Source: a virus (lineage: Duplodnaviria; Caudoviricetes). Taken from it: a stretch of 52,890 bases of DNA. Below the pieces are notes generated by a model that was not told where the DNA came from, ran no database searches, and saw nothing but the letters and a program-made list of their open reading frames with translations. Shown here piece after piece: positions 4,001-38,306 of this stretch (within the stretch, counting starts at the first letter, position 1; each line of letters opens with the position of its first letter). A program made the translations under genes and the position numbers. The DNA is taken from positions 1 through 52,890 of IMG/VR virus record IMGVR_UViG_3300043777_000227; one strand, written 5' to 3'.

Positions 4001-6260
4001 GCGTCAGAGGGGTGGTGATTACCAAGGCGTTGGTTGTGCCAGTATCCAAATGCGAATTGATTGCTCCTGACACATCCAAGGAGCTATTGGTAAAGCGAGC
4101 TACGCTAATTAGTTGGTTGGCAGCTGGGACTGGGGTGAGCGTGGTTAGCGCCTGGCCAGTATAAAGGAAAGAAGTTGTGGTACCACCAGATATAAAGAAT
4201 GCCGAGGTGATTAGTGAGGAGCTTACTATAGGTGTGGTCTGGACCTCTACACAATAGCCCCCAGGCGTAAGGGGTGTAGTAACTGGTAAGGTCCAGCTAT
4301 AGGTGATGGCATTGTTAGCTCCCGAAACGCTCACTGGTGAAGTATAACTTGGAGATGATGTTATCGAAAATGTCCGGTCGCAAGTAGTGCTGGAAGTGGT
4401 ATAGAACTGGGCGTAGTAGGTTCCAGCAGCTAGCGAGCCACCAGTCGTGGCTGTGCCCAATGGAGAGGTTGGCGGTAGCACCTTGGCAACTTGAACGTCC
4501 AAGGATTCCTTTATAGTCTGCTCAAGTCCAGAGTTAAAGGCATTGGTATCCCCTAGCCCAAACAACACGCCGAAGGCCGGATCAATTCCTATATTGCAGA
4601 ACAAACCTCCAGATGCGCACCAGCGGTCAGCGAGAGTCGGCCCTCCTCCAATGCCAAGAAGTGGAGTGGGAAATAGCGCGGAGGTGGGTTGCGCTATTTC
4701 AAAAGAGTTATCTGAGACGTGATCGGTTCCGCCGTATTGCTCATTCGAGCGGCCTTGGCCGGTGGCATTTCCATTCGCGTCTACCACTTGGCACTGAGGG
4801 CCGAAACAGTTGAAACTCACCATATGACCAGCGAGAACTTGAACGACCGGGGCTAGTGTCAGTCCATAATTGACATCCAGAAGCCACACGTTATTCAAGG
4901 TGGATGTCGAATCATTGAGCGTGAGGACTGGCGAAGGGCCGTTTGCATCTTCAATTGTCACTCGGTCGAATATAAATGGTCCAAGACCCTGACCAGCAGT
5001 TCCTGAGGTGTTTGAGATCGTCAGCCAGCCATTAGAGGAATCTTCGTTCTGAACATCCCGAAAGATCATCTCATTAATGGCAGCGCCGCCAGAGAATTGA
5101 GAACGAATGATTACTTGTTCGGCTCCTCCTGCATCTGTCACGTCCGACGTTTTGATAATGGACAAGAAAGGCTGCGTACCAGATTCAATTGTATAGATAA
5201 CAGGCGGGAGGGTTGTGCTCACTCCCTGAAACGATGCGTTGCTATGGTTGACCCGGTAGACCTCCAGCATGTTTGTGAGCTTGAGGGGGGTGTTGTCGGC
5301 CTGGCCCGTGATCGCTACTGACATCGGGGCGTTGTCGAAAGTGACGTGATTCGTATTGTTGACGTAAACAGCCTGGTTGTACCCGACCATCGCCAAATCC
5401 TTGAATGAACTATCCTGATTCCCATTGTTCAATTGGAAGACGGGCGCATTGTTGGGATTTGTCCCAGGGAGGACCACGATCATCGCGGCTGGATTCCCAA
5501 ATTGGAAGTCGCTGCCCCCTGTCAAACCGCGTATTTCTAAGAACGCGCAGCCACTTGGCAGGTTAAAAACAGGGAACACGGACGGCAGCTGTGGTTGTTG
5601 TACGCGGTAAACACCCGGTGGAAATAATACCGCTGGATGCATTGTAAAGAAGTTATCACCTGTTAATGTTGCACAAGAGGCAATGATGGCCGAGGAAATG
5701 GCAGCTGTGTCATCAGTACTTCCATCCCCCTTAGCGTTGTAAGGTGGGCAGGTTACGTCAATCCATGGGCGTGGCCCGGAGTCGCAAGAACTCTCAGTAA
5801 TTTGAAGTTGGCTACCGGTATCATGTACAGCTGCCGGCCCTAAGGTTAAGGAGCCTGCATTAAGCTGCAGATCGCCTTGATTGCCTCCAGGATTAGCCCC
5901 TCCCGATCCGCTATTCAAGGTAAGAAATTCATCATAGGGCTGGACGCTAGGCCCAGAGATTGTTATTAGATAATTACCTGGCGTCACATAGAAGTCGTAG
6001 TTGCCTCGGGCATCAGCCGTAAGGGGGTTAGGCGCCACCACCGTCAGTGCTAGGTTGGAGTAGATCGTGGTCTTGGGCGTGCAGGGGAAGACGTTCGTAG
6101 CCGCTGATGGCGAGCAGACCGTGATGGTCGCTCCACCCACCGGCTGGCCAGCCTGGTTGAGCACCGGATGGTCCACCCAGTGAACTCCCTGGGCATAGAC
6201 GGGCACCGTGCCCAGTAACATAAACAGCGCTGTGAATAGCGCGATTCTAATTGCCCGCAT
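1059..6260 (-). CDS. Large tail fibre/tailspike-like protein with pectate-lyase-3-like beta-helix and N-terminal signal peptide
   Basis: Likely start is ATG 6260 (GGAGG upstream). Contains DVTCPPYNAKGDGSTDDTAAI...FPPGVY (beta-helix entry motif), the DTGTTNAL...NTSAVTINLNGLGA fibre module and PVANGGTG Gly-rich fibre repeats. Confidence 0.8.
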   Translation of the reverse strand: MRAIRIALFTALFMLLGTVPVYAQGVHWVDHPVLNQAGQPVGGATITVCSPSAATNVFPCTPKTTIYSNLALTVVAPNPLTADARGNYDFYVTPGNYLITISGPSVQPYDEFLTLNSGSGGANPGGNQGDLQLNAGSLTLGPAAVHDTGSQLQITESSCDSGPRPWIDVTCPPYNAKGDGSTDDTAAISSAIIASCATLTGDNFFTMHPAVLFPPGVYRVQQPQLPSVFPVFNLPSGCAFLEIRGLTGGSDFQFGNPAAMIVVLPGTNPNNAPVFQLNNGNQDSSFKDLAMVGYNQAVYVNNTNHVTFDNAPMSVAITGQADNTPLKLTNMLEVYRVNHSNASFQGVSTTLPPVIYTIESGTQPFLSIIKTSDVTDAGGAEQVIIRSQFSGGAAINEMIFRDVQNEDSSNGWLTISNTSGTAGQGLGPFIFDRVTIEDANGPSPVLTLNDSTSTLNNVWLLDVNYGLTLAPVVQVLAGHMVSFNCFGPQCQVVDANGNATGQGRSNEQYGGTDHVSDNSFEIAQPTSALFPTPLLGIGGGPTLADRWCASGGLFCNIGIDPAFGVLFGLGDTNAFNSGLEQTIKESLDVQVAKVLPPTSPLGTATTGGSLAAGTYYAQFYTTSSTTCDRTFSITSSPSYTSPVSVSGANNAITYSWTLPVTTPLTPGGYCVEVQTTPIVSSSLITSAFFISGGTTTSFLYTGQALTTLTPVPAANQLISVARFTNSSLDVSGAINSHLDTGTTNALVITTPLTLSSIPTGMPLNVKVANPNTSAVTINLNGLGAVQATKQNGAALVFGDLCANHEYSFVYNGTSWDLTTPSCTAPISGVSSVSGDSGSIITNSSSTGAVTLVFGTESAHTVLAGPASGAAATPTFQTAPTIAVTNMTGTGAFNTSGNAGTATNAANLTGCVPVNAGDICVWTGSAWADVTGNNSGTQYLQETSVGVASWTTPSGAGTVTHSTGALTSGQPVLGNGSADVKVGPINLAGGSSFVTGLLPIANLASDSLTVNSQSCVLGSTCTIPFLINAVNQTSQAGLNLTTSTANTMGITITPVNTSGIIEKEEASGTVNTTSGGTGASAPAAHAVPIAEGASAFNFVTPGVSGTVLTSNGAAADPTYQATLVDPCTTLGCFIYGGAGGAATALNGPTSPNGVPQYILETPSGGAATAPTFGLAGVVVNPNSETTCGIQTLSVLDRAGVIFCAGTSTSTFTFPVHTAAGFGQALPVLIVNNNSGKMTLAPTTDTIDNANLFSNWADFIYNNSSGNWQSVQVPQFSAFPNTGAGNALTFNTATGQFGTISAGSGGGGTYPLTVAGTVTSGGIPYFSNTTTQTSSGLLASGQFVLGGGAGGAPTTSFSVVPVANGGTGTGSTLTGLVRGNASAMTAAEISGDCTTSGSNAITCTKINGTSVTGANGDVTTYGAGNTLADSGILGTNIVRKDAANTGAAAMTLNMSASTTSNSLQIPSQAGLTSNGTASIGYDTTGKNFHCPINGADALCAGEASAITSGFIPKSSSSTIALLAKSALDDGATTANTLTYTGTSGMAAPIFTATGTTAGFLDLPQGSSSSGVAPCNTANSICWQAPTSVTSQLRVLAGAPATGFPLYTNSSGTMTETITPVEGTISTGPALFGSTAVNTVVAQTIAVAAGHFTNLTMTAALGGSCTTAPTFNVFDGTSNTGTAKIATSTTQTKGNATSQTQTLTYAAGDLIGIYISTAGATCTTDTWVVSAEYSTP

Positions 6261-22303: not shown

Positions 22304-22599
22304 GGAAGTGAATTCCTCTCCAAAGCGCCACTAAGCCCAATGAAATCAACAAATCGGCTTGTAGCACAGAAAGTTTAGGCAGTTTAAACGCTTGCCCAGG
22401 CGTGGAGTACGCTTGCTGTCCAGTCAAGTGGGCTCCTTTAAGCCTTTTAAAGGGCTATCGCTGGTTCACGCCAGCACGAGTATCCAGACAGTAGCTGGAT
22501 GTATATGTGCAATAGGAGCCAGAATCCGTCCAGGCTGGTAAAAATCAGCTAAAATTGTCAAAATAACTGGCCTAAAATGAGTTACTTATGGGTGCGGGG

Positions 22600-22630
22600 T
22601 TGCAGTACTAAGTCGAATTGCTGCTATAAT
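22600..22630 (+). promoter_or_regulatory. Sigma70-type early promoter with extended -10
   Basis: TGcTATAAT at 22622-22630 (perfect extended -10) and TTGCAG at 22600-22605 (19-nt spacer), upstream of the first plus-strand ORF. Confidence 0.6.
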
Positions 22631-22850
22631 ATAACTAGAAAAGCTGATTAGTAAATGGGTTAGTTAGGACCCAACTGCGATACGATGGCGATGTCGAGTG
22701 GTAAAGCTAAACCCCTGCGCTGCAAGCTGTTAGCAGCGTTGAACTTGACGGCCAGTTGCGCGCACACGCAAGCAAAGCCCGTTGGGTGAGCGGCGCATCG
22801 GTCGTTAACCCAATGCCGAGCCTACCGCTAGTGACACATGGAGACACACC

Positions 22851-23277: not shown

Positions 23278-23436
23278 ATGAGAGCCAAGGTGTTTGAGTA
23301 CTTGACGTACAGCTTTCCCGTCGTTAGGACTACAACCGAAGCGCACGTACTTGCGGCACTAGAGCGACGGTTTGAGCTGACGCCGCGCTTTGCCAAGTTT
23401 TACCTTGACCAGTGGTTTGGTCAGGTAGGGGGCTAA
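23278..23436 (+). CDS. Small early hypothetical protein (52 aa)
   Basis: AGGAGG RBS; MRAKVFEYLTYSFP...; below the ORF-track cutoff. Confidence 0.6.
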   Translation: MRAKVFEYLTYSFPVVRTTTEAHVLAALERRFELTPRFAKFYLDQWFGQVGG

Positions 23437-23437
23437 C

Positions 23438-23812
23438 ATGGGGCTACTACCAGTCAAGAATTACCCACTGGCTAAGGCGCTCAAGAAGGCGAACCATGCC
23501 GACCAGCGCATACCCGTGGGCATGGACGCCAAGCACTGGGACGCCATACTTAAGCAGCGCCTGATTGACGCCTATGTGTCCAACGCTATGTGGGCGGGCT
23601 ATCAGGTCGCCAAATGGGTAGAAACTCGCCGGCGCATAGGAACGGGCTATGCTGATGCGCTGGAATTGCTCAACGATGAGAGGCTTATGGGCGAGCGGCT
23701 AGACGAGTTCGCTGTACATGCCGCTTTGCGCCCATTTGCCATTCGCCGGGCTAGGGCTTTGGTGCTATCTGGCAAGCTCCAGCCCCGCCGGGAACAAGCC
23801 AATGGAAACTAG
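23438..23812 (+). CDS. Early hypothetical protein
   Basis: 124 aa, operon-packed. Confidence 0.65.
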   Translation: MGLLPVKNYPLAKALKKANHADQRIPVGMDAKHWDAILKQRLIDAYVSNAMWAGYQVAKWVETRRRIGTGYADALELLNDERLMGERLDEFAVHAALRPFAIRRARALVLSGKLQPRREQANGN

Positions 23813-30761: not shown

Positions 30762-32090
30762 TTGATAACTCCAGAGGAATTTGACGCACTCCACGCTGAG
30801 CTAGCCAAAGACGCTGAGCCAGCCAAGGAAATTCCCCAGGGCGGCTGGGTTGTAACGGAAAATGGCTCATTGGGACATCGCCAGCCAGGCCAGGACACCT
30901 GGATCAGCCTGTTCTACAAGACCGTTGATGGCGCCAAGGTTCGCTCAGACTACTTCTACCCAACAAACCAACCCTGGAAGCTAGCCAAGCACCAAGGCTT
31001 TACCCTGCCAAAGTTCGCCGGCTTGTTGCCTGAGCTGTGCAAGCGGCTGAATGTCTCGGCGACTTCAGGCACTGACCCAGAAATCTTCGTCCAGGATCGC
31101 TGGGGCGACATTCTCCCGGCTTGGAGTTTCCTGCCCAACAAAGCTGAGGCGTATAAGTTGCCTCGTTGGGAAAATGAGAAGGTGTTTAGGGACTCCGGCC
31201 CGCTATCGGCAGAAGTCAAGGCCAACTCCGTAGCCTACTGGGATGGCTTTCAAGCTGAATTCTCCACGCCAGGAGTGAACTGCCTAGACATCCTCTGCGC
31301 CGAGGTGTTCCACCAGTTGAAGGCGTTGCAAGCCAAGATGCCTTTGGGCTGCAAGCTAAGCCCAGAGAGCACCCTACCAGTAACCCAGCTAGTTCTGGAC
31401 AAGGCTAGCGAGGAGCATGTCGCTCTAGGCTGCAAGCCTTCCCTGAACGCCTATGGGCACAAGGGCATTTGCGTGGAGAATTGCCGGGATTTGCGCCACC
31501 GTTTTGCTGGAGGTCACATCCATTTTGGCCTGGACGAGCAGTTCAAAGCGCCTGAGCAGCTAATTGCTGCCGTCAAGATGATAGACGCGGTGATGGGTGT
31601 AGCCTCGGTGAGCCTGCTGCCCAAGGAATCGCCAATTCGCCGCCGCTACTATGGACTGGCTGGTGAATATCGCACGCCCAGCCATGGACTAGAGTATCGA
31701 GTATTGAGCAACTACTGGCTGCGCTCACCCAAGCTATTCATGCTAACCTTTACGTTGGCCAGAGGCGCCATGCGGTTGGGCCTCAGGGATTTCCGCAAGG
31801 ATTACCAAGCTAGCGACGCCGAGGTGACTGAGTGTATCAACAACCACGATGTGGACTTGGCGTGCAAGCTGATTGATCGGAACCGGGTGATCTACGAGGC
31901 GCTATTGAATGCCTACTGTAACGCCGATGCCAGAGGCGTGGACTATACCCTGGCTATGTTCAAGGGTGGCGTGGACAATTACCTGCCCAGCCAGGATATT
32001 CCGGCGAACTGGCACCTAGACCAACCAACCTATGGATACGCCAACAAGGAGCTGAGCGGGCGATGGGGACTGCACCTAGCAAGCATCTAA
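30762..32090 (+). CDS. COOH-NH2 ligase type 2 (phiEco32-like amidoligase, glutamine-synthetase-like fold), copy 1
   Basis: GTDPEIFV, DGFQAEF, GCKP..NAY, AGGHIHFG, RRRYYGLAGEYR...GLEYRVLSNYW. Confidence 0.9.
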   Translation: MITPEEFDALHAELAKDAEPAKEIPQGGWVVTENGSLGHRQPGQDTWISLFYKTVDGAKVRSDYFYPTNQPWKLAKHQGFTLPKFAGLLPELCKRLNVSATSGTDPEIFVQDRWGDILPAWSFLPNKAEAYKLPRWENEKVFRDSGPLSAEVKANSVAYWDGFQAEFSTPGVNCLDILCAEVFHQLKALQAKMPLGCKLSPESTLPVTQLVLDKASEEHVALGCKPSLNAYGHKGICVENCRDLRHRFAGGHIHFGLDEQFKAPEQLIAAVKMIDAVMGVASVSLLPKESPIRRRYYGLAGEYRTPSHGLEYRVLSNYWLRSPKLFMLTFTLARGAMRLGLRDFRKDYQASDAEVTECINNHDVDLACKLIDRNRVIYEALLNAYCNADARGVDYTLAMFKGGVDNYLPSQDIPANWHLDQPTYGYANKELSGRWGLHLASI

Positions 32091-32353
32091 GCGCTCTGGA
32101 ACTGGACAACCTGCGCCGGCAGCGAGCACGCTGCCCAGCTTGCAATGGCACTGGCCGCCAGCCCGACCAGCTCACGCAGTCCGATGACCGCTTTTGTGAG
32201 CCATGCCACAGCTTTGGCTGGGTGCTGCCCAATGCTAATTGCGCTTGCGGGCGCTCCCCAAATATGGAGCAGGAAGGGATTTTATTTTGTGGCAGGCCAC
32301 CTTGCCTGGAGCGGCTCAAAACCGCCAAGCTAGTGGACCAATATTTGTACTGA
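32063..32353 (+). CDS. Cys-rich (DnaJ-type CxxCxGxG) hypothetical protein
   Basis: CPACNGTG, CEPCHSFG, CACG, CGRPPC. Confidence 0.55.
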   Translation: MGTAPSKHLSALELDNLRRQRARCPACNGTGRQPDQLTQSDDRFCEPCHSFGWVLPNANCACGRSPNMEQEGILFCGRPPCLERLKTAKLVDQYLY

Positions 32354-32367
32354 GTTGCCACATCGAA

Positions 32368-32714
32368 CTTGAGGAAGCATCCAGTTGTCACGCAGCCGCG
32401 CCTGAAGTCTGACAGTGGCCCTAAGGGCCTGGGGGTGAGAACTCCTCGTTTGACACGGGAACACTTTCAGGCACGGTCGGTTGGCGTAGAAGCTAGTTGC
32501 CTCTGTGCGCGACGTAAGCCTGGGTTGGGCCAGCGATAACGCTATATTCGCCTTCGGGTGGATCACTAGCGCGCTGGTATGGACCACGCCTTGCAAAAGG
32601 CGTTCAGGGCTGGGCGTCCGGTTAAACAAGTAGCTAGTCTGCGCCCGTTGACGGTGCCGAGGGAACCGGCATGGACACGGACTGGCGCTGTTTCCTCAGG
32701 AAATTTTCTGGAGG
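32368..32714 (+). ncRNA. Unidentified structured RNA A (~330-350 nt), possibly cis-regulatory for the GNAT gene
   Basis: Closing stem CTTGAGGAAGCA (32368-79)/TGTTTCCTCAGG (32689-700), CCAGT/ACTGG, GCCTGAAGT/ACTTTCAGGC, GGCGTAGA/TCTGCGCC, a C(UUCG)G hairpin at 32546-63 and a GCAA hairpin at 32586-603. No credible ORF. Confidence 0.75.
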
Positions 32715-32718
32715 TTGT

Positions 32719-33102
32719 ATGACAGGCTGCTTAGCTGAATCCTTGTATCTGCTGGAAAGCTCATTGAGAACACGCGGCTATAGTGTGTGCAGGATGAATG
32801 GACGAACCGTTCATGTTACAACTTCCCAAGGCGCCAAGTTTGATCTGTCGTTTCTGGATGGAAACCGCCGCGTATTGGTCAGCAATCATGTGTGGGTGCC
32901 GCCAGAGGATCGAGGTAGGGGTGAAGGTAGGCGCTTGCTGAATCTGCGTGAGGTGGTCGCCAGGGAAGCTGGCGTAAACCTACTAATGGCAACTGTGCAT
33001 AATACCAACAAGCCAGAAATCCATTTGCTGTCCACAAGCGGTTGGAAGCGCCTGTTGAATAGGCGTGAAACCAAAGTATCCTTGTGGATTAAAAAGCTCT
33101 AG
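32719..33102 (+). CDS. GNAT-family N-acetyltransferase
   Basis: Start reassigned to ATG 32719 (GGAGG 32710-14). VWVPPEDRGRGEGRRLL acetyl-CoA motif A; TVHNTNKPEIHLLSTSGW motif B. Confidence 0.8.
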   Translation: MTGCLAESLYLLESSLRTRGYSVCRMNGRTVHVTTSQGAKFDLSFLDGNRRVLVSNHVWVPPEDRGRGEGRRLLNLREVVAREAGVNLLMATVHNTNKPEIHLLSTSGWKRLLNRRETKVSLWIKKL

Positions 33103-33498
33103 GCGTCGTCCAGCCGGGAGTGGTTGCCGCCTACTGGCGGTGGACCTAACCGAGTGTGGGCACTAAACGCCGAAAAGCGGCGGCGAACAGCTGCCGTTGA
33201 GGGGACCGCTACGGCGGTTCGCAGCGCAAGCTGCTGGGTCGAACATCGCAAGCCAGCCTTGGCCGGTAGGGGGAGACTGGTGCGCGAGCAAAATGTTGGC
33301 AGCTTCCACAACCTGTGTGGAACCAGCTGACTAATCCCGTGGACCCGCTAGGCGAGCTTGGCCAAGGGCTGAAACCCCTTGCCCCGGCGACGACCCTAGC
33401 GACCGAGACCAAAGATAAATTTCCACGGGTTCCTAGCCGGGGATGCACCAGCGCGAAAGCGGGAGGCGCAAGCCTTGAGTGGTGCGGAGGTCCCCGGC
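33103..33498 (+). ncRNA. Unidentified structured RNA B (~400 nt)
   Basis: Hairpins C(UACG)G at 33204-19, GCAA at 33221-34, GCGA at 33281-90, GAAA at 33452-61 and GCAA at 33464-75. Long-range stems AGCTGCCG/TGGCAGCT, CCCGTGGA/TCCACGGG, CGCTAGG/CCTAGCG, GCCGGGGAT/GTCCCCGGC. Confidence 0.75.
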
Positions 33499-33519
33499 AA
33501 AGTTTCTAAGGAGACTAGC

Positions 33520-34146
33520 TTGGACCTAGTAATAACACCTAGCCGCAGGTTGATTCACCAAGCAGTCTATCCAGCTGGCCAACGCCTGCCGAAATGGCCC
33601 GACAAGCAATATGGCGGCTACCGGCCTTGGGCGCCAGTGGAAACTCGCCGGCATGGGCATGTCATACAAATCGAGCCTAACCGCTTCTCGCACCAAGACG
33701 GCTGGTTCAGCCCGCTGAAGGACAAGCAAGACTCCGGCTCGCTGTTGGAGCTAGCCGGGGGAAATTTGAAATTTGGCGATTATATCTATTGGGTAGGGCA
33801 CAAGGTCCAGCGGGCAAACTTCTCGCTGTGCCGCTGGTGCCACAAGAATTGCTTCGATTATCGAGAGCGCAAGGACCACTTCGACAAGGTGCGCACGGAA
33901 ACCTTCTCGCACGCCAAGCTGTTGGACTTCTCCGCCAAGCTGCTACGGGCTAGGGATTTGTGCGTGAGCTGTGGTTGCCACACCCGCCAGCAGAAATGGG
34001 GCGTGCCTTTGTGCCAAACGCTGAGGTGCATGGAGTACTTTATGTTCGATGTGCACATCCTGGATGGCAAGCTGGTGCAGGAGTGCCAAAACGCCGTGCT
34101 GCGCGATTTGGGACTGGCTGTGGACAAAAGGGTGGTGTGCGTATGA
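33520..34146 (+). CDS. Cys-rich hypothetical protein
   Basis: TTG start after AAGGAG (33508-13); CRWC...H, CVSCGC, CQTLRC. Confidence 0.65.
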   Translation: MDLVITPSRRLIHQAVYPAGQRLPKWPDKQYGGYRPWAPVETRRHGHVIQIEPNRFSHQDGWFSPLKDKQDSGSLLELAGGNLKFGDYIYWVGHKVQRANFSLCRWCHKNCFDYRERKDHFDKVRTETFSHAKLLDFSAKLLRARDLCVSCGCHTRQQKWGVPLCQTLRCMEYFMFDVHILDGKLVQECQNAVLRDLGLAVDKRVVCV

Positions 34147-34862
34147 AGCAATTTCACATCGAACGCTACCTAAATCCCAAATGGACTTGGCGGTTGGGCA
34201 GCAAGCCCGATCCATTTCCTGGCCAGTGGCCTACTCGCTTGTTCCTGCGCCATGACGAATCCAAGTTCCTTTATCTGGGCAAGCCCAGTATTCCCCAGGT
34301 CCAGCGCTTCAACCTCCTGGTCCAGAAACTTGGCCTGAACATCTGGGACTGTGCGGTGGAATTCGACCGAGGCGGCGCTGTCTACACCCACACCGGCCAG
34401 AAGGGCACTGCGCATACCGGCAATTTGTTCCAGCTCTACCACCATTGGAACTACCCCGATAGCTTGGCTAGGCACCTGACCATACCGCTACACTGCAAGC
34501 GGCTAGGAGGCCAGTCGGTATACTCACCGTGGCAAACCTTGCCGCCGGGCTATGACGAGGCGTTTCTCCAATGGCTGGCGGACTTTCTGGGTGGCAAGCT
34601 GAAAGCCCCAGCACCTGAGCCGTCCAAGAAAAAAGCTAACCAACTGGAAGAAATCCTAGAGCGCTATGCTCCACCGCTGAGAGCGGCGCAGGCGCGGCCA
34701 GGTGGTATATTCCAAGCCCAGTGGAACGGGCGGGAGATTTTTGGGGGTGGGGTCAATGCACAGCCGGCTCCTGAACCTCAACCAGCTCAGCAGCAAGGCC
34801 GTCGAGCGCTGCCCGATCTAGATGAATGGAATCCACCAGAAATCGTCGAGGTGCGTGATTGA
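34143..34862 (+). CDS. Hypothetical protein with Pro/Gln-rich tail
   Basis: ATGA coupling; start reassigned to 34143. Confidence 0.65.
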   Translation: MKQFHIERYLNPKWTWRLGSKPDPFPGQWPTRLFLRHDESKFLYLGKPSIPQVQRFNLLVQKLGLNIWDCAVEFDRGGAVYTHTGQKGTAHTGNLFQLYHHWNYPDSLARHLTIPLHCKRLGGQSVYSPWQTLPPGYDEAFLQWLADFLGGKLKAPAPEPSKKKANQLEEILERYAPPLRAAQARPGGIFQAQWNGREIFGGGVNAQPAPEPQPAQQQGRRALPDLDEWNPPEIVEVRD

Positions 34863-36358
34863 GCGCTTACACCGACCTCCGAGAAGATTTCCGCCAAGCG
34901 CTAGTACTAGGTGGTGTGCGACGAGACGACCACCTCAGCGCCCACTGGCGTGAGCAGCTGCCTAGCCACATCCGAGAGGTCTGGCTCCGGCGCTACTACC
35001 GCCCAGTAGAAAATCCTCTAGCACCCCTGGGCCAGTACGTCAACCATTTCCTGGTGGGTGCTGACCCAGAGTTTAGCCTGGGCATGGATGGTGGGTTGGA
35101 GGACGCCTGCAATCTCAATCTGAAAGCTGGGCTGGCTTGGGGCGCAGATAACAATGGCCGCCTAGCTGAGCTGCGCCCCGTACCCAGCAGGAGCTGCCTA
35201 AGGGTGGTTGCTAGCATAGGCGCTGAGCTGCGCTGGATGTCCTGGTTGCACAAAGGATTGATGAACTACCAGTGGAAATCTGGCGCCTGGACTGGGCGAG
35301 ACGGGCTAGGCGGCCATGTACACTTCGGTCGCAAGAAGAAAACCCTCACCCCCGCAGAAACTGCCGCCTTGGACACTCTCTGCTTCTGGCTGTACCAATC
35401 GGGGATTTTCAACTACGCTGAAGGCAAGGAGCGCTACCAGCGCACTCGCGGGCATGGAGGCTATGGACGCCCAGGGGACATTCGCTGGCAGCTCCACGGA
35501 TGGGAGTACCGAACGCTGCCTAGCTGGCTGGACAGCCCGTGGCTAGCTTATTTCAGCTTGACGCTGAGCAAGCTGGCGGTGTTTGACCCGCAGCTATTGC
35601 CCCGTTTGCACAAGAATCTGGAGTTGGAGTCGCCTTCGCGCATCAAGGACCACCTCTCAGCGCTGCTAGCCTATTACCAGCATCGAGACGACGACGCTGC
35701 CTTGGCTTATGCAATCCTGGTGAGGAGGGATTTCCCGAAGTATGACCCCAGCGATTTCAAGCCGCGCTGGGGCATCTTCGCACCACCGTTGCTAGTACCT
35801 CTAGTTCACATCATCCCTAATAGCGTGGAACCAGCGGAGGTGGAAGTGCGAGAAATGGCCCAAGCCCTGCTAGCCGGCCGTCCACCAGAGCCAGTAAACT
35901 CTCAGCCTACCTGGCATCCGCATCTTCTACCAGTAAACTATGTATATCTCCCGGATATGGTGCAAACGCGCCATGCCCCTGGGCTAGGTGAGCTGATGGT
36001 TGGACTCTGCACCTACGGGGAGGGTGTGCAGGTCCGCTCGCTAGGCGAGCGCCAATCAAGTATCTATATAGGCCAGGATTGGGCAAGGTATCTATCTCGA
36101 AAGCACTGGCAAGAGCTAAAGCTGCGCTTCCCCGACATCAAGTTCTCCCAAGACGAGTCAAATCGCCTGACCTTTACCACAGGCATTGACTACAAGCGCT
36201 ATGGCCGGGAGCTAAAGCGCTGGCTCTGGGAAGGCCAGTTGCCAATCTGGCGCGTCGAGGATGTGCAAGCTGGTAGCTATACCCAATGGCAAGCCTCCAG
36301 AAAGATTCCTGAGGCGCCTAAGGCTAAGCCAGCTGGAAAGTATTCTATCCAACTATGA
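34859..36358 (+). CDS. COOH-NH2 ligase type 2, copy 2 (with C-terminal extension)
   Basis: VGADPEF, GADNNGRLAELRP.PS, LGGHVHFG, GYGRPGDIR...GWEYRTLPSWL.SP. Confidence 0.88.
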   Translation: MSAYTDLREDFRQALVLGGVRRDDHLSAHWREQLPSHIREVWLRRYYRPVENPLAPLGQYVNHFLVGADPEFSLGMDGGLEDACNLNLKAGLAWGADNNGRLAELRPVPSRSCLRVVASIGAELRWMSWLHKGLMNYQWKSGAWTGRDGLGGHVHFGRKKKTLTPAETAALDTLCFWLYQSGIFNYAEGKERYQRTRGHGGYGRPGDIRWQLHGWEYRTLPSWLDSPWLAYFSLTLSKLAVFDPQLLPRLHKNLELESPSRIKDHLSALLAYYQHRDDDAALAYAILVRRDFPKYDPSDFKPRWGIFAPPLLVPLVHIIPNSVEPAEVEVREMAQALLAGRPPEPVNSQPTWHPHLLPVNYVYLPDMVQTRHAPGLGELMVGLCTYGEGVQVRSLGERQSSIYIGQDWARYLSRKHWQELKLRFPDIKFSQDESNRLTFTTGIDYKRYGRELKRWLWEGQLPIWRVEDVQAGSYTQWQASRKIPEAPKAKPAGKYSIQL

Positions 36359-36374: not shown

Positions 36375-37460
36375 ATGTGCGGCATCGGAGGAATAGTTCG
36401 CTACGGTGAACGGCCCATTCTACCCTGGCAGGTGGAGATGCTAGCCTGTTCGCTGGAGTATCGAGGTAACGACGCTACAGGCCTGGTTGTGCAATTCCAG
36501 GATGGCAGTTTGGAGCTACTTAAGAACCATGAGCCAGCCTGGCAGTTTATGTCAGCCAAGGACACCCAGGAGTGGCTAGCCAAGCAGCTGGACCGGCCAG
36601 AGCACAAGCTGGTGCTGGTCCACACCCGCAAGATGACCAAAGGCAGCCAGTACCAGAACAAGAATAACCACCCGATGTTTGATGGCCAAGCCGCCATCAT
36701 CCACAATGGGGTGATCTCCAATGACGACGACCTATTCAAGTCCCTCCAATTGGAACGGGCTGCCGAGACCGATTCGGACATCATCCGCGCCATTGTGGAC
36801 AAGTGGGGTTTGGATCGCAAGCTAGTAGGCCGGGACGGCAAGTTAACCAAGCTAATTGGCTCAGTGGCCTCAGCAGCAATCCACCCTGGCTACCCACAGA
36901 AGTTGCTCTTGCTGCGGAGCAACAACCCGCTCTACATCGGCACCAACAAAGAGCACATGGCGTTTGCCAGTTGCAAGCGCAGCTGCTTCCTGGTGCTAGG
37001 CAATTGGGTTAAGCGTTTTGGCATTGAGCAGCGAGTCCACGACAACGACCTGGCGTTCATTTCCATGCCTAACCATACTGGCTGGCTGTTGGACCTCTCC
37101 AAGAAGGAGCTGGCTTGGCACGATGAATTCACCGCCTCGCACTACGAGCGCAAGATAGTCTACAACGTCCACAATCCCGATTGGAAGCGCCGCAAGGAAG
37201 AAGCCGAGCGGGCCTTCGACCGAGCACAAAAGCTAGCCGAAGAAGAACGCAAGAAGGAGCCGCCCACCCGCCCTTTAGTCCAGCGTCGTCCGGACTATGT
37301 AGTGTGCCAGGGCGAACTGTCCGGCAAACGCTGTACGACTATTTGCGATCTGCGGGCTCAATCTGTGGAGAAGCCGATATGGAAGATGGCTTGTCCAGAT
37401 TGTGGGACTAACCTGGTGAATATGCCTGCGTGCAATTCCCAAGGCGAGATTATCCAGTAA
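36375..37460 (+). CDS. Class II (Ntn) glutamine amidotransferase with C-terminal Zn ribbon
   Basis: N-terminal MCGIGG, RGNDATG, HTRK.TKG, NNHP, HNGVISN, ETDSD; C-terminal C...C...CPDC. Confidence 0.92.
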   Translation: MCGIGGIVRYGERPILPWQVEMLACSLEYRGNDATGLVVQFQDGSLELLKNHEPAWQFMSAKDTQEWLAKQLDRPEHKLVLVHTRKMTKGSQYQNKNNHPMFDGQAAIIHNGVISNDDDLFKSLQLERAAETDSDIIRAIVDKWGLDRKLVGRDGKLTKLIGSVASAAIHPGYPQKLLLLRSNNPLYIGTNKEHMAFASCKRSCFLVLGNWVKRFGIEQRVHDNDLAFISMPNHTGWLLDLSKKELAWHDEFTASHYERKIVYNVHNPDWKRRKEEAERAFDRAQKLAEEERKKEPPTRPLVQRRPDYVVCQGELSGKRCTTICDLRAQSVEKPIWKMACPDCGTNLVNMPACNSQGEIIQ

Positions 37461-37475: not shown

Positions 37476-38306
37476 GTGCCAAATTATATTATCCGTCGGT
37501 TGAAGCTAGGCCGCCGGAGCTGTAAAGGAATTCGCATCGCCAGTCGCCATCTTCGCCGCTCAATCCGCCATGATCGGGGAGTGCCTCAGGATGCTGAGTG
37601 GGTCTTTCGCTGGGGCTGCACGGCCCGCATACCCCACGACCGGGTGGTAAACTCCCCGGAGGCTATCAACTGCGTCAACAACAAAGCCGGTTTCCGCGAG
37701 AAACTCCAAGAAGCCGGACTATGCCCACAGACTTGGTTTAATTATGTGGATGTTACATTCCCCTGCATCGTGCGTCCTATGTTTCATGCCCAGGGCAAGA
37801 AGCTCTGGAAGTGTGACAACATCCAGCAATTAGCTCTGGCCGCAGATCGCGCAGGCCAAGGTTGGTACGCCAGCCAGTTGATTAATAAGACCGCCGAGTA
37901 CCGCGTCCTGGTCGCTCAGGGTCGAGCTGTTTGGGTGGTCAAGAAGATTCCAGCTAACCCTCAGGCTATCGCCTGGAATGTGAACCAAGGCGGTCGCTTT
38001 GAGAATATCTCCTGGGACAATTGGCCGCTCAAGGTGGTCAAGACCGCCATCCAAGCTTGGAAGCTTAGCGGCCTGGATTTCGGCGGGGTGGACATTATGG
38101 AGGACGCCGACGGCAAATGCTATGTGCTGGAAATCAACTCAGCGCCTAGCCAGACCTCGCCCTACCGCCAGCAATGTATGGCTAAGGTGTTTGATTGGAT
38201 TGTTGAGCACAACTCCTGCAAGGAAATCCCCTTGCCTGAGGAAAAGGGTGGCTATAGGAAATTTATCCACCCAGCAATCTCCCAGGATGCTCGACTAGGA
38301 GCCTAG
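37476..38306 (+). CDS. ATP-grasp ligase (RimK/phiEco32-like)
   Basis: RWG, VVNS..AI....NK, PQTW, FPCIVRP, EYRV, GLDFGGVDI, YVLEINSAPS. Confidence 0.9.
   Translation: MPNYIIRRLKLGRRSCKGIRIASRHLRRSIRHDRGVPQDAEWVFRWGCTARIPHDRVVNSPEAINCVNNKAGFREKLQEAGLCPQTWFNYVDVTFPCIVRPMFHAQGKKLWKCDNIQQLALAADRAGQGWYASQLINKTAEYRVLVAQGRAVWVVKKIPANPQAIAWNVNQGGRFENISWDNWPLKVVKTAIQAWKLSGLDFGGVDIMEDADGKCYVLEINSAPSQTSPYRQQCMAKVFDWIVEHNSCKEIPLPEEKGGYRKFIHPAISQDARLGA

What the first reader, a model, noticed from the sequence alone, without database searches (positions are those of the whole stretch)
32368..33498. Two large ornate non-coding RNAs sandwiching a GNAT gene inside a phage peptide-ligase cluster
Seen: this genome is otherwise packed with overlapping ORFs, yet about 350 nt and about 400 nt of non-coding sequence flank one small GNAT acetyltransferase. 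Both segments fold by eye into multi-junction structures with nested long-range stems, G-U pairs, UUCG/UACG and several GNRA tetraloops, and T-loop-like loops (GGGGG-UGAGAA-CUCC; AAGGG-CUGAAAC-CCCUU). The tetraloops read correctly only on the + strand, which points to selection at the RNA level. I do not recognise either as tRNA, tmRNA, RNase P, SRP or a group I/II intron. Inference: an undescribed RNA-GNAT-RNA module linked to the amidoligase/ATP-grasp/GATase locus. The RNAs could be regulators sensing the pathway product, RNA partners or antitoxins of the GNAT (some GNATs such as TacT/AtaT acetylate aminoacyl-tRNA), or stand-alone large phage RNAs in the manner of GOLLD/ROOL.
Basis: partly seen in the sequence, partly recalled or inferred. 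Interest (0 to 1): 0.9.

Follow-up and report, generated by a model that had tools for sequence, protein, structure and literature searches.

The report
Conserved phage RNA beside ligase genes
The stretch upstream of the small acetyltransferase gene is a real, conserved folded RNA of a family not yet catalogued, tied to a neighbouring ligase and zinc-finger gene pair rather than to the acetyltransferase, while the downstream stretch looks folded too but has no known relatives.

Summary
Two non-coding stretches, 32354-32718 (365 nt) and 33103-33519 (417 nt), flank a 127-aa GNAT gene. Both fold better than all 100 shuffles on the + strand (z -3.0 and -3.5). Together they carry 6 GNRA/UNCG-capped hairpins on + and 0 on - (shuffle mean 0.69, P=0.0002). 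Neither matches Rfam.

The upstream RNA belongs to a conserved family. In 10 of 10 related loci that hold the first COOH-NH2 ligase, an ORF-poor gap of 255-573 nt follows the zinc-finger gene after that ligase. The eight gaps folded give z -2.2 to -5.8 on +. Helices covary: 16 of 24 pairs in a sequence-only alignment, 0 of 500 shuffles. A covariance model built from relatives only finds window 32493-32637 (22.2 bits, E=5.5e-4; next hit E=0.83).

The proposed RNA-GNAT-RNA module is not supported. In relatives the GNAT lies 0.75-1.5 kb from the RNA with small genes between, and two relatives lack it. A contig from another soil sample joins 32709 directly to 33093, so it has no GNAT.

The downstream RNA has no detectable relatives. 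Its support is thermodynamic, plus one natural variant whose changes spare or extend helices. Function is unknown. I infer a self-closing RNA domain working with the ligase/zinc-finger module.

The parts
30762..32090 (+). COOH-NH2 ligase type 2 gene (ligase-1). Conserved upstream context of the RNA family.
   Evidence: Pfam PF14395, E=4.4e-8. Homologues sit in the same position in 10 loci.
32063..32353 (+). 96-aa cysteine-rich zinc-finger gene (CPxCxG...CxxCxGxG...CGR...C). The RNA family always follows it.
   Evidence: Weak DnaJ_CXXCXGXG hit, E=0.0024, below Pfam's cut-off. Family alignment A12 has 8 invariant Cys/Gly/Arg positions. Homologues precede the RNA gap in every locus.
32354..32718 (+). 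Upstream non-coding stretch (IGR1). The self-closing RNA domain spans 32368-32700.
   Evidence: z -3.00, 0 of 100 shuffles. All key helices persist when 32300-33560 is folded in context. CM R2 hit at E=5.5e-4.
32368..32385 (+). P1 5' strand. It pairs with 32681-32700 and closes the domain.
   Evidence: 12-bp helix at pair probability 0.99 plus a 5-bp helix at 0.84. Equivalent closing helices of different sequence in L002, L006, L019 and L020. Read by eye in L009 and L021.
32401..32459 (+). Three-way junction with hairpins 32417-32429 (GGCCC-UAA-GGGCC) and 32431-32446 (GGGGGU-GAGA-ACUCCU).
   Evidence: MFE. Relatives have the same two adjacent hairpins with covarying stems. The match of model R1 is weak here: E=0.066 when only the gap is searched, 9.6 for the whole window.
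32492..32500 (+). P(x) 5' strand. It pairs with 32630-32638.
   Evidence: 9 bp in the same register as relatives, with 7 of 9 pairs changed on both sides across the family.
32500..32510 (+). Conserved internal-loop strand CCUCUGUGCGC. CCUCU is invariant in all 8 aligned sequences.
   Evidence: Invariant columns of A3 and A4. R2 alignment.
32511..32521 (+). P(y) 5' strand with bulged A32516. It pairs with 32607-32618.
   Evidence: Pair probabilities 0.98 and 0.73. 6 of 10 pairs compensatory in A8. The bulged A is invariant.
32523..32603 (+). Variable apical region with a UUCG-capped hairpin (32546-32563) and a GCAA-capped hairpin (32586-32603).
   Evidence: Pair probabilities 0.97-0.99. This region varies in length and sequence in relatives.
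32619..32629 (+). Conserved internal-loop strand CGGUUAAACAA. UAAAC.A is invariant in all 8 sequences.
32681..32700 (+). P1 3' strand.
   Evidence: The contig of run X3 covers 32635-32709 without a mismatch.
32710..33102 (+). Shine-Dalgarno site (32710-32714) and GNAT gene (32719-33102, 127 aa). This is not part of the RNA element.
   Evidence: Pfam PF00583, E=4.1e-5. Relatives at 38-60% identity. 32710-33092 is absent from a contig of run X3.
33103..33519 (+). Downstream non-coding stretch (IGR2). It is a string of nine hairpin domains: 33105-33163; 33176-33198; 33203-33220 (UACG); 33221-33234 (GCAA); 33246-33287; 33295-33335; 33336-33429 (loop CUGAAAC); 33436-33498 (Y-shaped, GAAA and GCAA loops); 33501-33516 (holds half of the next gene's SD).
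   Evidence: z -3.49, 0 of 100 shuffles; - strand z -0.69. Pair probabilities are mostly 0.8-0.98. 8 of 9 tested helices persist in context; 33176-33198 does not. No relatives found.
33463..33476 (+). GCAA-capped hairpin that a natural variant lengthens by one pair.
   Evidence: Run X3 inserts T behind 33466 and A behind 33472. These are mirror positions of helix 33463-33467/33472-33476. Its substitutions at 33468, 33471 and 33486 fall on unpaired bases. The contig has depth 2.3.
33520..34146 (+). 208-aa gene of unknown family. It is the conserved downstream neighbour of the GNAT region.
   Evidence: tblastn homologues at 26-32% identity in 13 loci. No Pfam or PHROG family.

Best explanation
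Shown. The window is a fragment of an uncultured soil phage carrying a peptide-ligase cluster: two COOH-NH2 ligases, a GATase and an ATP-grasp enzyme. The stretch 32354-32718 encodes, on the + strand, one member of a conserved structured RNA family that Rfam 15 does not hold. In this phage group the RNA always starts within a few bases of the stop codon of a small zinc-finger gene, which itself follows ligase-1.

The RNA closes on itself through a terminal helix (P1, 32368-32385 with 32681-32700). It holds a three-way junction with two adjacent hairpins. It also holds two long-range helices, P(x) and P(y), that clamp an internal loop of near-invariant sequence (CCUCUGUG.GC opposite UUAAACAAG).

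The GNAT gene is not part of it. In this lineage the small genes that separate RNA and GNAT in relatives are missing, which brings the two side by side. A sister strain has lost the GNAT as well.

The stretch 33103-33519 is a second + strand-specific array of nine stable hairpins, found so far only in this lineage.

Inferred. The upstream RNA is made as the tail of the ligase-1/zinc-finger transcript. It acts as a discrete folded domain that works with that module. Its conserved loop would be the docking site for a protein (the zinc-finger protein or ligase-1) or for a product of the pathway. A secondary effect would fall on the ribosome-binding site that follows it, which lies inside P1 in L019 and L020.

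The downstream stretch is most likely a lineage-specific structured RNA or transcript-stabilising region. It is not decayed coding DNA.
For: Non-coding, strand-specific structure.

Synteny. All 10 loci that contain ligase-1 (L002, L006, L007, L009, L012, L016, L019-L022) have a zinc-finger ORF followed by an ORF-poor gap of 255-573 nt.

Folding in relatives. The 8 gaps folded give + strand z from -2.18 to -5.84, and the - strand is weaker in each (L019 about equal). L020 alone gives z -4.94.

Covariation.
- MAFFT alignment A5 of 7 relatives, not fitted to any structure: 93.0% of cells paired, 16 of 24 pairs changed on both sides, 0 of 500 shuffles as high. Partners slid by 1-3 columns give 29-50% paired.
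- A8, which includes the window but is fitted to the model: 95.6% paired, 13 of 19 pairs compensatory, 0 of 500 shuffles, slid controls 36-52%.

Membership of the window. Model R2 was built from 5 relatives without the window. It gives one significant hit in 52,890 bp on both strands with filters off: 32493-32637 +, 22.2 bits, E=5.5e-4. The next hit has E=0.83. Across about 156 kb of loci R2 hits only the family's own copies at E<=1.

Invariant bases shared by all 8 sequences: CCUCU, C, G, A and GG, UAAAC.A.

P1 closure: pair probability 0.84-0.99 in the window, L002, L006, L019 and L020, with unrelated sequences.

The GNAT is separable.

The genes after the RNA are unrelated to one another. 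0 cross-hits among 6 distinct downstream ORFs; L019's was read out of frame and is uninformative.

Downstream stretch. In the natural variant, 3 of 3 substitutions inside domain 33436-33498 fall on unpaired bases and the two insertions can pair with each other.
Against: Homology of the window's RNA to the family rests on one CM hit whose E-value is rough by the tool's own statement.
- A sequence-only profile of the relatives finds nothing in the window.
- blastn finds nothing.
- Model R1 of the 5' domain is not significant over the whole window (E=5.1 and 9.6). It is only marginal when the search is limited to the gap (E=0.036 and 0.066).
- R2 also fails to find L019 and L020, which I place in the family by alignment and synteny.

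The family is small: 7 distinct relatives, some closely related, so covariation counts include inherited changes.

A coding window elsewhere folds as well as these stretches (z -3.81).

Nothing shows that the RNA is made, processed or bound. The zinc-finger protein looks like a DnaJ-type cysteine-rich domain, which is better known (my recollection) for protein contacts than for RNA contacts.

L016 lacks the segment that holds the P1 3' strand in L009, so P1 is not indispensable.

The downstream stretch has no comparative support beyond one 151-nt contig of depth 2.3. One of its hairpins (33176-33198) is absent from a sister strain and is lost in the context fold.
Confidence: 0.55

Rival explanations
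1. The two RNAs and the GNAT form one functional module. The RNAs would be partners, substrates or antitoxins of the GNAT, as with GNAT toxins that acetylate charged tRNA.
For: The three are adjacent in this window. GNAT-fold enzymes are known companions of COOH-NH2 ligases in such operons (PMC4431377, passage read).
Against: In 7 loci with both the RNA and a GNAT, the two are 756-1540 nt apart with small genes between. There the GNAT is flanked by small coding ORFs. L020 and L022 have no GNAT by tblastn. A contig from another soil run joins 32709 to 33093 with 0 mismatches in 287 nt, so it keeps both RNA flanks but has no GNAT. No tRNA-like gene was found.
Confidence: 0.04
2. The upstream RNA is a riboswitch-like or protein-dependent leader. 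Its job would be to switch translation or transcription of the cistron that follows it.
For: The RNA ends 10-20 nt before the next Shine-Dalgarno site in every locus. In L020 the 21-bp P1 contains the SD GAGGAGGAG, and in L019 P1 contains a GGGGA 12 nt before the start codon. The invariant CCUCU resembles an anti-SD sequence (the resemblance is my reading). A possible alternative pairing of the GGCGGUGU segment appears in the RNAalifold output.
Against: The downstream gene differs in every lineage: GNAT here, an HNH-motif ORF in L009 and L016, and unrelated small ORFs elsewhere, with 0 cross-hits. The SD lies outside P1 in the window and in L002. At 275-430 nt the domain is large for a leader (my judgement).
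Confidence: 0.15
3. Both stretches are generic intercistronic structure. They would be hairpin arrays that protect the polycistronic mRNA from nucleases, offer RNase III/E sites or insulate translation, with no specific ligand or partner.
For: The downstream stretch is a beads-on-a-string array of independent hairpins. Relatives carry single long GNRA-capped hairpins between genes of the same operon, for example L020 near 4640, L022 near 5242 and L019 near 4635. One hairpin is dispensable in a sister strain.
Against: The upstream RNA has near-invariant unpaired nucleotides, long-range helices and a fixed position across lineages whose proteins are only 26-38% identical. That is more constraint than a stabiliser needs (my judgement). 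No terminator-like site was found in 31500-34500.
Confidence: 0.18
4. The downstream stretch (33103-33519) is decaying or recently acquired DNA without function. Its apparent structure would be a by-product of composition.
For: No relatives by blastn, pairwise alignment or model R3. The region is indel-polymorphic: a 25-nt deletion, and a minor variant in the source sample that replaces 54 nt with 201 nt. In relatives the equivalent position holds a small coding ORF.
Against: z -3.49 against dinucleotide shuffles, but only -0.69 on the other strand. 3 GNRA/UNCG-capped hairpins against a shuffle mean of 0.35, P=0.0055. The variant's changes spare or extend helices.
Confidence: 0.08

Closest known systems
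Large ornate RNAs of unknown function often found in phages and prophages (ROOL, GOLLD; also OLE, raiA)
   Same: Several hundred nucleotides long, multi-branched and rich in stable tetraloops. Phage-borne, conserved by covariation, with no known function.
   Different: No match to any of the 4227 Rfam 15 models in the window or in 11 related loci at gathering score, nor below it. Smaller (275-430 nt core). Found so far only in one small clade of soil phages. Fixed beside a ligase/zinc-finger gene pair.
Candidate structured RNAs mined from IMG/VR (PMC10690425)
   Same: Intergenic, covariation-supported RNA motifs of uncultured phages.
   Different: Those candidates are 29-151 nt long and needed at least 3 unique IMG/VR regions (passages read). 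The main text holds none of the words ligase, amidotransferase, acetyltransferase or zinc.
Riboswitch or protein-binding 5' leaders
   Same: A folded domain ending just before a ribosome-binding site. A conserved internal loop clamped by helices. The SD lies inside the closing helix in two relatives.
   Different: The controlled gene is not conserved, whereas the upstream genes are. No known riboswitch model matches.
RNA genes kept beside their protein partner (retron msr-msd with RT, ToxI with ToxN, Y-like RNA with Rsr)
   Same: Strict adjacency of a structured RNA to one particular small gene across divergent genomes.
   Different: No reverse transcriptase, no tandem repeats, no tRNA-like module. 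No evidence that the zinc-finger protein binds RNA. These comparisons come from my own knowledge, not from a tool.

Membership tests
Any Rfam 15 family (including GOLLD, ROOL, OLE, raiA, group I/II introns, RNase P, SRP, tmRNA, riboswitches) | Score at or above the family's gathering threshold | tested here: not met
   0 matches in the window and 0 in 11 related loci. At E<=10 there were only 3 eukaryotic lncRNA chance hits in 32200-33700 and 3 snoRNA chance hits in L021's RNA.
tRNA, tmRNA or tRNA-like module | Cloverleaf recognised by ARAGORN | tested here: not met
   0 genes in 52,890 bp.
New family defined here: RNA downstream of the ligase-1/zinc-finger gene pair | Position directly after the zinc-finger ORF that follows COOH-NH2 ligase-1 | tested here: met
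   In the window the ORF stops at 32353 and P1 starts at 32368. The layout is the same in 10 of 10 loci that hold ligase-1.
New family defined here: RNA downstream of the ligase-1/zinc-finger gene pair | P(x) and P(y) helices clamping the loop CCUCUGUG.GC / UUAAACAAG | tested here: met
   Model R2, built from relatives only: 22.2 bits, E=5.5e-4 at 32493-32637, next hit E=0.83. 9 of 9 P(x) pairs form in the relatives' register. E-values of this tool are rough.
New family defined here: RNA downstream of the ligase-1/zinc-finger gene pair | 5' three-way junction with two adjacent hairpins | tested here: inconclusive
   The MFE shows the same layout. Model R1 gives only E=9.6 over the whole window and 0.066 when the gap alone is searched.
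New family defined here: RNA downstream of the ligase-1/zinc-finger gene pair | Terminal helix P1 closing the domain | tested here: met
   Window: 12 bp at P=0.99. L002: 10 bp at 0.99. L019: 14 bp at 0.96. L020: 21 bp at 0.94. L006: 6 bp at 0.84. L016 lacks the 3' strand.
New family defined here: RNA downstream of the ligase-1/zinc-finger gene pair | Detectable sequence similarity | tested here: not met
   nhmmer with a profile of 7 relatives places no hit in 32354-32718, even with --max. blastn finds none.
   They are never adjacent in relatives, the GNAT is absent from 2 loci, and a GNAT-less variant exists.
Riboswitch or leader | Same class of gene under control in different genomes | tested here: not met
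   The downstream ORFs are unrelated: 0 cross-hits by blastp at E<=0.01.
Group I/II intron carrying an ORF | Interrupts one host gene; catalytic core | tested here: not met
   The flanking ORFs are separate genes in all relatives. No intron model matched even at E<=10.

The most novel reading that the evidence does not exclude
The RNA after the zinc-finger gene is a working component of the phage peptide-ligase system. It would be either a scaffold or acceptor on which the COOH-NH2 ligase/zinc-finger pair builds or carries its peptide product (an RNA-dependent amidoligase system), or a riboswitch for that still unknown product. The second RNA would be a further lineage-specific component. That would give an enigmatic, widespread class of phage amidoligases its first handle on substrate and function.
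Probability: 0.12. Interest if true: 0.85.

Novelty: new variant of a known kind. Interest (0 to 1): 0.6.

Why it matters
Phage COOH-NH2 ligase, GATase and ATP-grasp clusters have been known from comparative genomics for years, but no substrate or role has been shown. A conserved, covariation-supported RNA of about 330 nt sits at a fixed place inside that cluster and has a near-invariant internal loop. It gives a concrete, testable object: does it bind the neighbouring zinc-finger protein, the ligase or a pathway product?

It also adds a medium-large structured RNA family from soil phages that Rfam 15 does not hold. The work shows as well that the striking RNA-gene-RNA sandwich in this window is an accident of gene loss and not a module. 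That saves effort which would otherwise go into the GNAT.

Tried and rejected
Close relatives of the window. Single-protein scans of IMG/VR with the GNAT, the 33520 ORF and ligase-2 found none. The GNAT alignment also found none there. blastn (distant mode) of 32000-34200 and tblastn of ligase-2 against GenBank phages found nothing. Exact motif scans of IMG/VR with two stretches of the downstream RNA gave 0 hits. A 20-mer of the upstream RNA hit two bacterial MAG contigs, but the matches extend only 21-34 nt and are chance. The family motif pair occurs in IMG/VR only in L021's own contig.

Expression. No RNA holder was listed for the stretch. This says nothing about expression.

Coding alternatives. 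I looked at TAG or TGA recoding because all 12 minus-strand stops in the downstream stretch are TAG. I rejected it: codon scores on that strand are negative and the surrounding genes lie on the + strand.

Pseudogene remnants. tblastn of all + strand ORFs of 50 aa or more from 15 loci gave no hit better than E=0.04 inside either stretch.

Repeats and mobile-element ends. None found.

Promoters and terminators. 1 promoter-like site, outside the stretches, and 0 terminator-like sites.

Downstream RNA versus the 3' extension of L009/L016/L021. Model R3 gave no hit in 33103-33519 at E<=10. That model rests on effectively 1.1 sequences, so its power is low. Alignment of the downstream RNA with L022 5126-5701, another structured stretch before the 33520 homologue (z -5.17), showed no blocks of similarity.

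Zinc-finger protein. AlphaFold2 on the 8-sequence alignment gave mean pLDDT 51.8, too poor for a fold search, so none was run. The protein atlas gave only sub-threshold leads (DnaJ cysteine-rich and Anti-TRAP type, scores 0.80-0.86).

Literature. Three searches and word look-ups in three papers found no RNA described with this gene cluster. The supplements of PMC10690425 were closed.

Full report
WHAT IS THERE. The window is one IMG/VR virus record of 52,890 bp, estimated 81% complete. It has head, portal, terminase and DNA polymerase genes. Around the finding the + strand reads as follows:
- COOH-NH2 ligase type 2, 'ligase-1' (30762-32090)
- a 96-aa cysteine-rich zinc-finger ORF (32063-32353)
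- 365 nt without a gene (32354-32718)
- a 127-aa GNAT (SD GGAGG 32710, ATG 32719, stop 33102)
- 417 nt without a gene (33103-33519)
- a 208-aa ORF (SD AAGGAG 33508, TTG 33520)
- a further ORF
- ligase-2 (34859-36358)
- a class-II GATase (36375-37460)
- a RimK-like ATP-grasp enzyme (37476-38306)

Both stretches have stops in all six frames. Codon log-odds are negative or near zero. 0 of 7 internal ORFs hit Pfam or PHROGs at E<=1.

On the + strand they fold to -157.8 and -193.5 kcal/mol, with z -3.00 and -3.49 and 0 of 100 dinucleotide shuffles as stable. The - strands give z -2.01 and -0.69. Energy alone is not decisive. Among 22 control windows of 390 nt elsewhere (mean z -0.72, sd 1.16), one coding window reached -3.81.

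The stronger signal is the kind of hairpin. 6 of 22 candidate tetraloop hairpins on + are capped by GNRA or UNCG, against 0 of 16 on - and 27 of 668 in the rest of the + strand (Fisher p=3e-4). Shuffles average 0.69 and 1 of 5000 reaches 6. The only 400-nt windows in the genome with three or more such hairpins overlap these stretches.

Rfam gives nothing at gathering score and only chance lncRNA hits below it. ARAGORN finds no tRNA or tmRNA. There are no repeats or second copies in the window.

RELATIVES. No close relative of the phage is in IMG/VR or among GenBank phages. The GNAT has four relatives at 52-60% identity in the large protein collection.

An alignment of the GNATs pulled 15 metagenome loci. 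A ligase-2 alignment pulled 4 IMG/VR loci. Gene order is conserved: ligase-1, zinc finger, several small genes, GNAT, a small ORF, the 33520 homologue, and on to ligase-2 and the GATase.

Next to the GNAT the relatives have no long gaps. The apparent gaps of about 150 nt on either side hold a small zinc-ribbon ORF and a small ORF of about 55 aa (read from the DNA).

THE UPSTREAM RNA IS A FAMILY.

Position. In every one of the 10 loci that include ligase-1, the zinc-finger ORF is followed by an ORF-poor gap of 255-573 nt. In L022 the gap comes after one more small ORF.

Folding. The eight gaps I folded have + strand z from -2.18 to -5.84, and the - strand is weaker in each (L019 about equal). 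L020 2783-3220 gives z -4.94.

Alignment. MAFFT aligns them with the window's 32354-32718. Invariant blocks shared by all 8 sequences are CCUCU..C...G.A and GG....UAAAC.A. RNAalifold predicts 31 pairs, 19 of them with compensatory changes.

Covariation.
- On the sequence-only alignment of the 5' domain of 7 relatives (A5), my curated 24 pairs are 93.0% paired. 16 pairs change on both sides, and 0 of 500 shuffles reach any of the five measures. Sliding the partners by 1-3 columns drops pairing to 29-50%.
- For the 3' half, the model-fitted alignment A8 (4 relatives plus the window) is 95.6% paired. 13 of 19 pairs are compensatory, 0 of 500 shuffles match, and slid controls give 36-52%. Because it is fitted, this alignment leans towards the structure.

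IS THE WINDOW'S COPY A MEMBER? Sequence alone says no. blastn and an nhmmer profile of the relatives find nothing there.

Structure plus sequence says yes for the 3' half. Model R2 was built from L002, L006, L009, L016 and L021 only. Its single significant hit in the whole window, both strands, filters off, is 32493-32637 + at 22.2 bits and E=5.5e-4. The alignment is exactly the expected one: P(x), CCUCUGUG, P(y) with its bulged A, UUAAACAAG, P(x). The next hit has E=0.83. Across about 156 kb of loci the model finds only the family's own copies at E<=1.

Two weaknesses remain. R2 misses L019 and L020, which I place in the family by alignment and synteny. Model R1 of the 5' domain is not significant over the window (E=5.1 and 9.6), and only marginal, though collinear, when the gap alone is searched (E=0.036 and 0.066). 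I take the window's RNA as a diverged member, with the 5' junction unproven.

ANATOMY IN THE WINDOW.
- P1: 32368-32379 with 32689-32700 (12 bp, probability 0.99), plus 32381-32385 with 32681-32685.
- Three-way junction 32401-32459, with hairpins GGCCC-UAA-GGGCC and GGGGGU-GAGA-ACUCCU.
- P(x): 32492-32500 with 32630-32638.
- Loop strands: 32500-32510 and 32619-32629.
- P(y): 32511-32515 with 32614-32618, and 32517-32521 with 32607-32611, around bulged A32516.
- A variable apex with UUCG and GCAA hairpins.

All of these helices survive when 32300-33560 is folded as one piece. Closing helices of unrelated sequence are predicted in L002, L006, L019 and L020. By eye they can be written for L009 and L021 too, with compensatory differences from L002. 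L016 lacks that segment.

THE GNAT IS A BYSTANDER. In relatives it sits 756-1540 nt beyond the RNA. tblastn finds none in L020 or L022.

Contigs of a soil run from another study (X3) include one of 287 nt that matches 32635-32709 and 33093-33329 without a mismatch. It skips the 383 nt between them (SD plus nearly the whole GNAT) and also 25 nt at 33173. So a sister strain keeps both RNAs and has no GNAT. The contig has depth 2.6 and no microhomology at the joint.

The genes that follow the RNA in the various lineages are unrelated to one another.

THE DOWNSTREAM RNA. It folds into nine hairpin domains with pair probabilities mostly 0.8-0.98. Eight of the nine tested helices persist in context.

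I found no relatives. blastn, alignment to the structured stretch before the 33520 homologue in L022 and model R3 of the 3' extension that L009, L016 and L021 carry after their core (weak model) all failed.

The only comparative data are from run X3.
- The 25-nt deletion removes essentially hairpin 33176-33198.
- A 151-nt contig at about 89% identity covers 33422-33569. Inside the Y-shaped domain 33436-33498 its three substitutions fall on unpaired bases.
- Its two single-base insertions (T behind 33466, A behind 33472) sit at mirror positions of helix 33463-33467/33472-33476, so they can add a U-A pair. The GCAA loop is not kept.
- The small SD hairpin 33501-33516 is disrupted in that variant.
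- The source sample also holds a minor variant in which 33467-33520 is replaced by 201 other letters.

These indels (+1, +1, 25, 383) also argue against coding.

HOW IT MOST LIKELY WORKS. Shown: a conserved, self-closing, strand-specific RNA fold with an invariant internal loop, fixed behind ligase-1 and the zinc-finger gene.

Inferred: it is transcribed with those genes. No promoter- or terminator-like site lies nearby, and it starts within about 15 nt of the stop codon. It would serve that module, with the loop as docking site for a protein or a pathway product. An effect on the following ribosome-binding site is possible, since the SD lies inside P1 in L019 and L020.

I rate this at about one in three to one in two. 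The leader, stabiliser and junk readings are given as rivals.

COMPARISON AND NOVELTY. The RNA works like other orphan structured RNAs of phages, but it is not a member of any Rfam 15 family. Three literature searches and three papers searched for key words gave no description of an RNA in this gene cluster. The supplementary motif lists of PMC10690425 could not be opened and might hold a fragment. PMC4431377 (passage read) notes that GNAT and COOH-NH2 ligase genes are often linked in peptide-ligase operons. That explains the GNAT's presence without any RNA.

VERDICT. The upstream RNA is a new conserved family. The downstream one is a plausible orphan. The sandwich around the GNAT is fortuitous.

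Noticed in passing
L019 4616-4673 and L020 4620-4681: A long GNRA-capped hairpin whose stem differs at many positions yet stays paired, followed by the shared motif ACCCCGTTTTAGG, upstream of the GNAT/33520-type genes. The motif occurs in only these 2 of 22 loci and not in the window (6 matches at up to 3 mismatches, 12 expected by chance).
   Followed up: partly
L009 3806-4048 and L016 3687-3959: The first ORF after the RNA carries an HNH-type motif (H..N..CCFNCN). The slot behind the RNA holds a different gene in each lineage, like an insertion hot spot.
   Followed up: partly
window 33467-33520: In the probable source sample, a minor contig (depth 5.6 against 17.9) replaces these 54 nt with 201 other letters. 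The end of the downstream RNA is polymorphic within one sample.
   Followed up: no
window 23400-23789: A coding window that folds with z -3.81, the lowest of 22 control windows. It may hide another structured element or may be chance.
   Followed up: no
window 33090-33530: The + strand has no TTA or TCA trinucleotide, so all 12 stops on the minus strand are TAG. CTAG is frequent here. I found no explanation.
   Followed up: partly
L022 4161-4765 and 5126-5701: This GC-rich relative has a long ORF-poor stretch after its zinc-finger gene holding GCCTCTGTGGGCG (near 4707) but no UAAACAAG. A second stretch before its 33520 homologue folds with z -5.17 (- strand -1.76); part of that stretch may encode a 63-aa protein.
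   Followed up: partly
L016 versus L009: L016 lacks about 107 nt of L009's RNA gap, including the segment that forms the 3' strand of the closing helix, yet keeps the 3' extension.
   Followed up: no
L009 3650-3805 and L021 3862-4017: The 3' extension after the core RNA is itself conserved. It includes a hairpin with covarying stem and fixed loop UUUGGCCG, and a block UAGCGGACCUUCG(C/U)GGACCCUAU. It may be a second RNA domain in those phages.
   Followed up: partly
window 22304-22850: A 547-nt gap lies between the leftward structural genes and the rightward early genes, probably the control region. It holds no GNRA/UNCG hairpin cluster.
   Followed up: no
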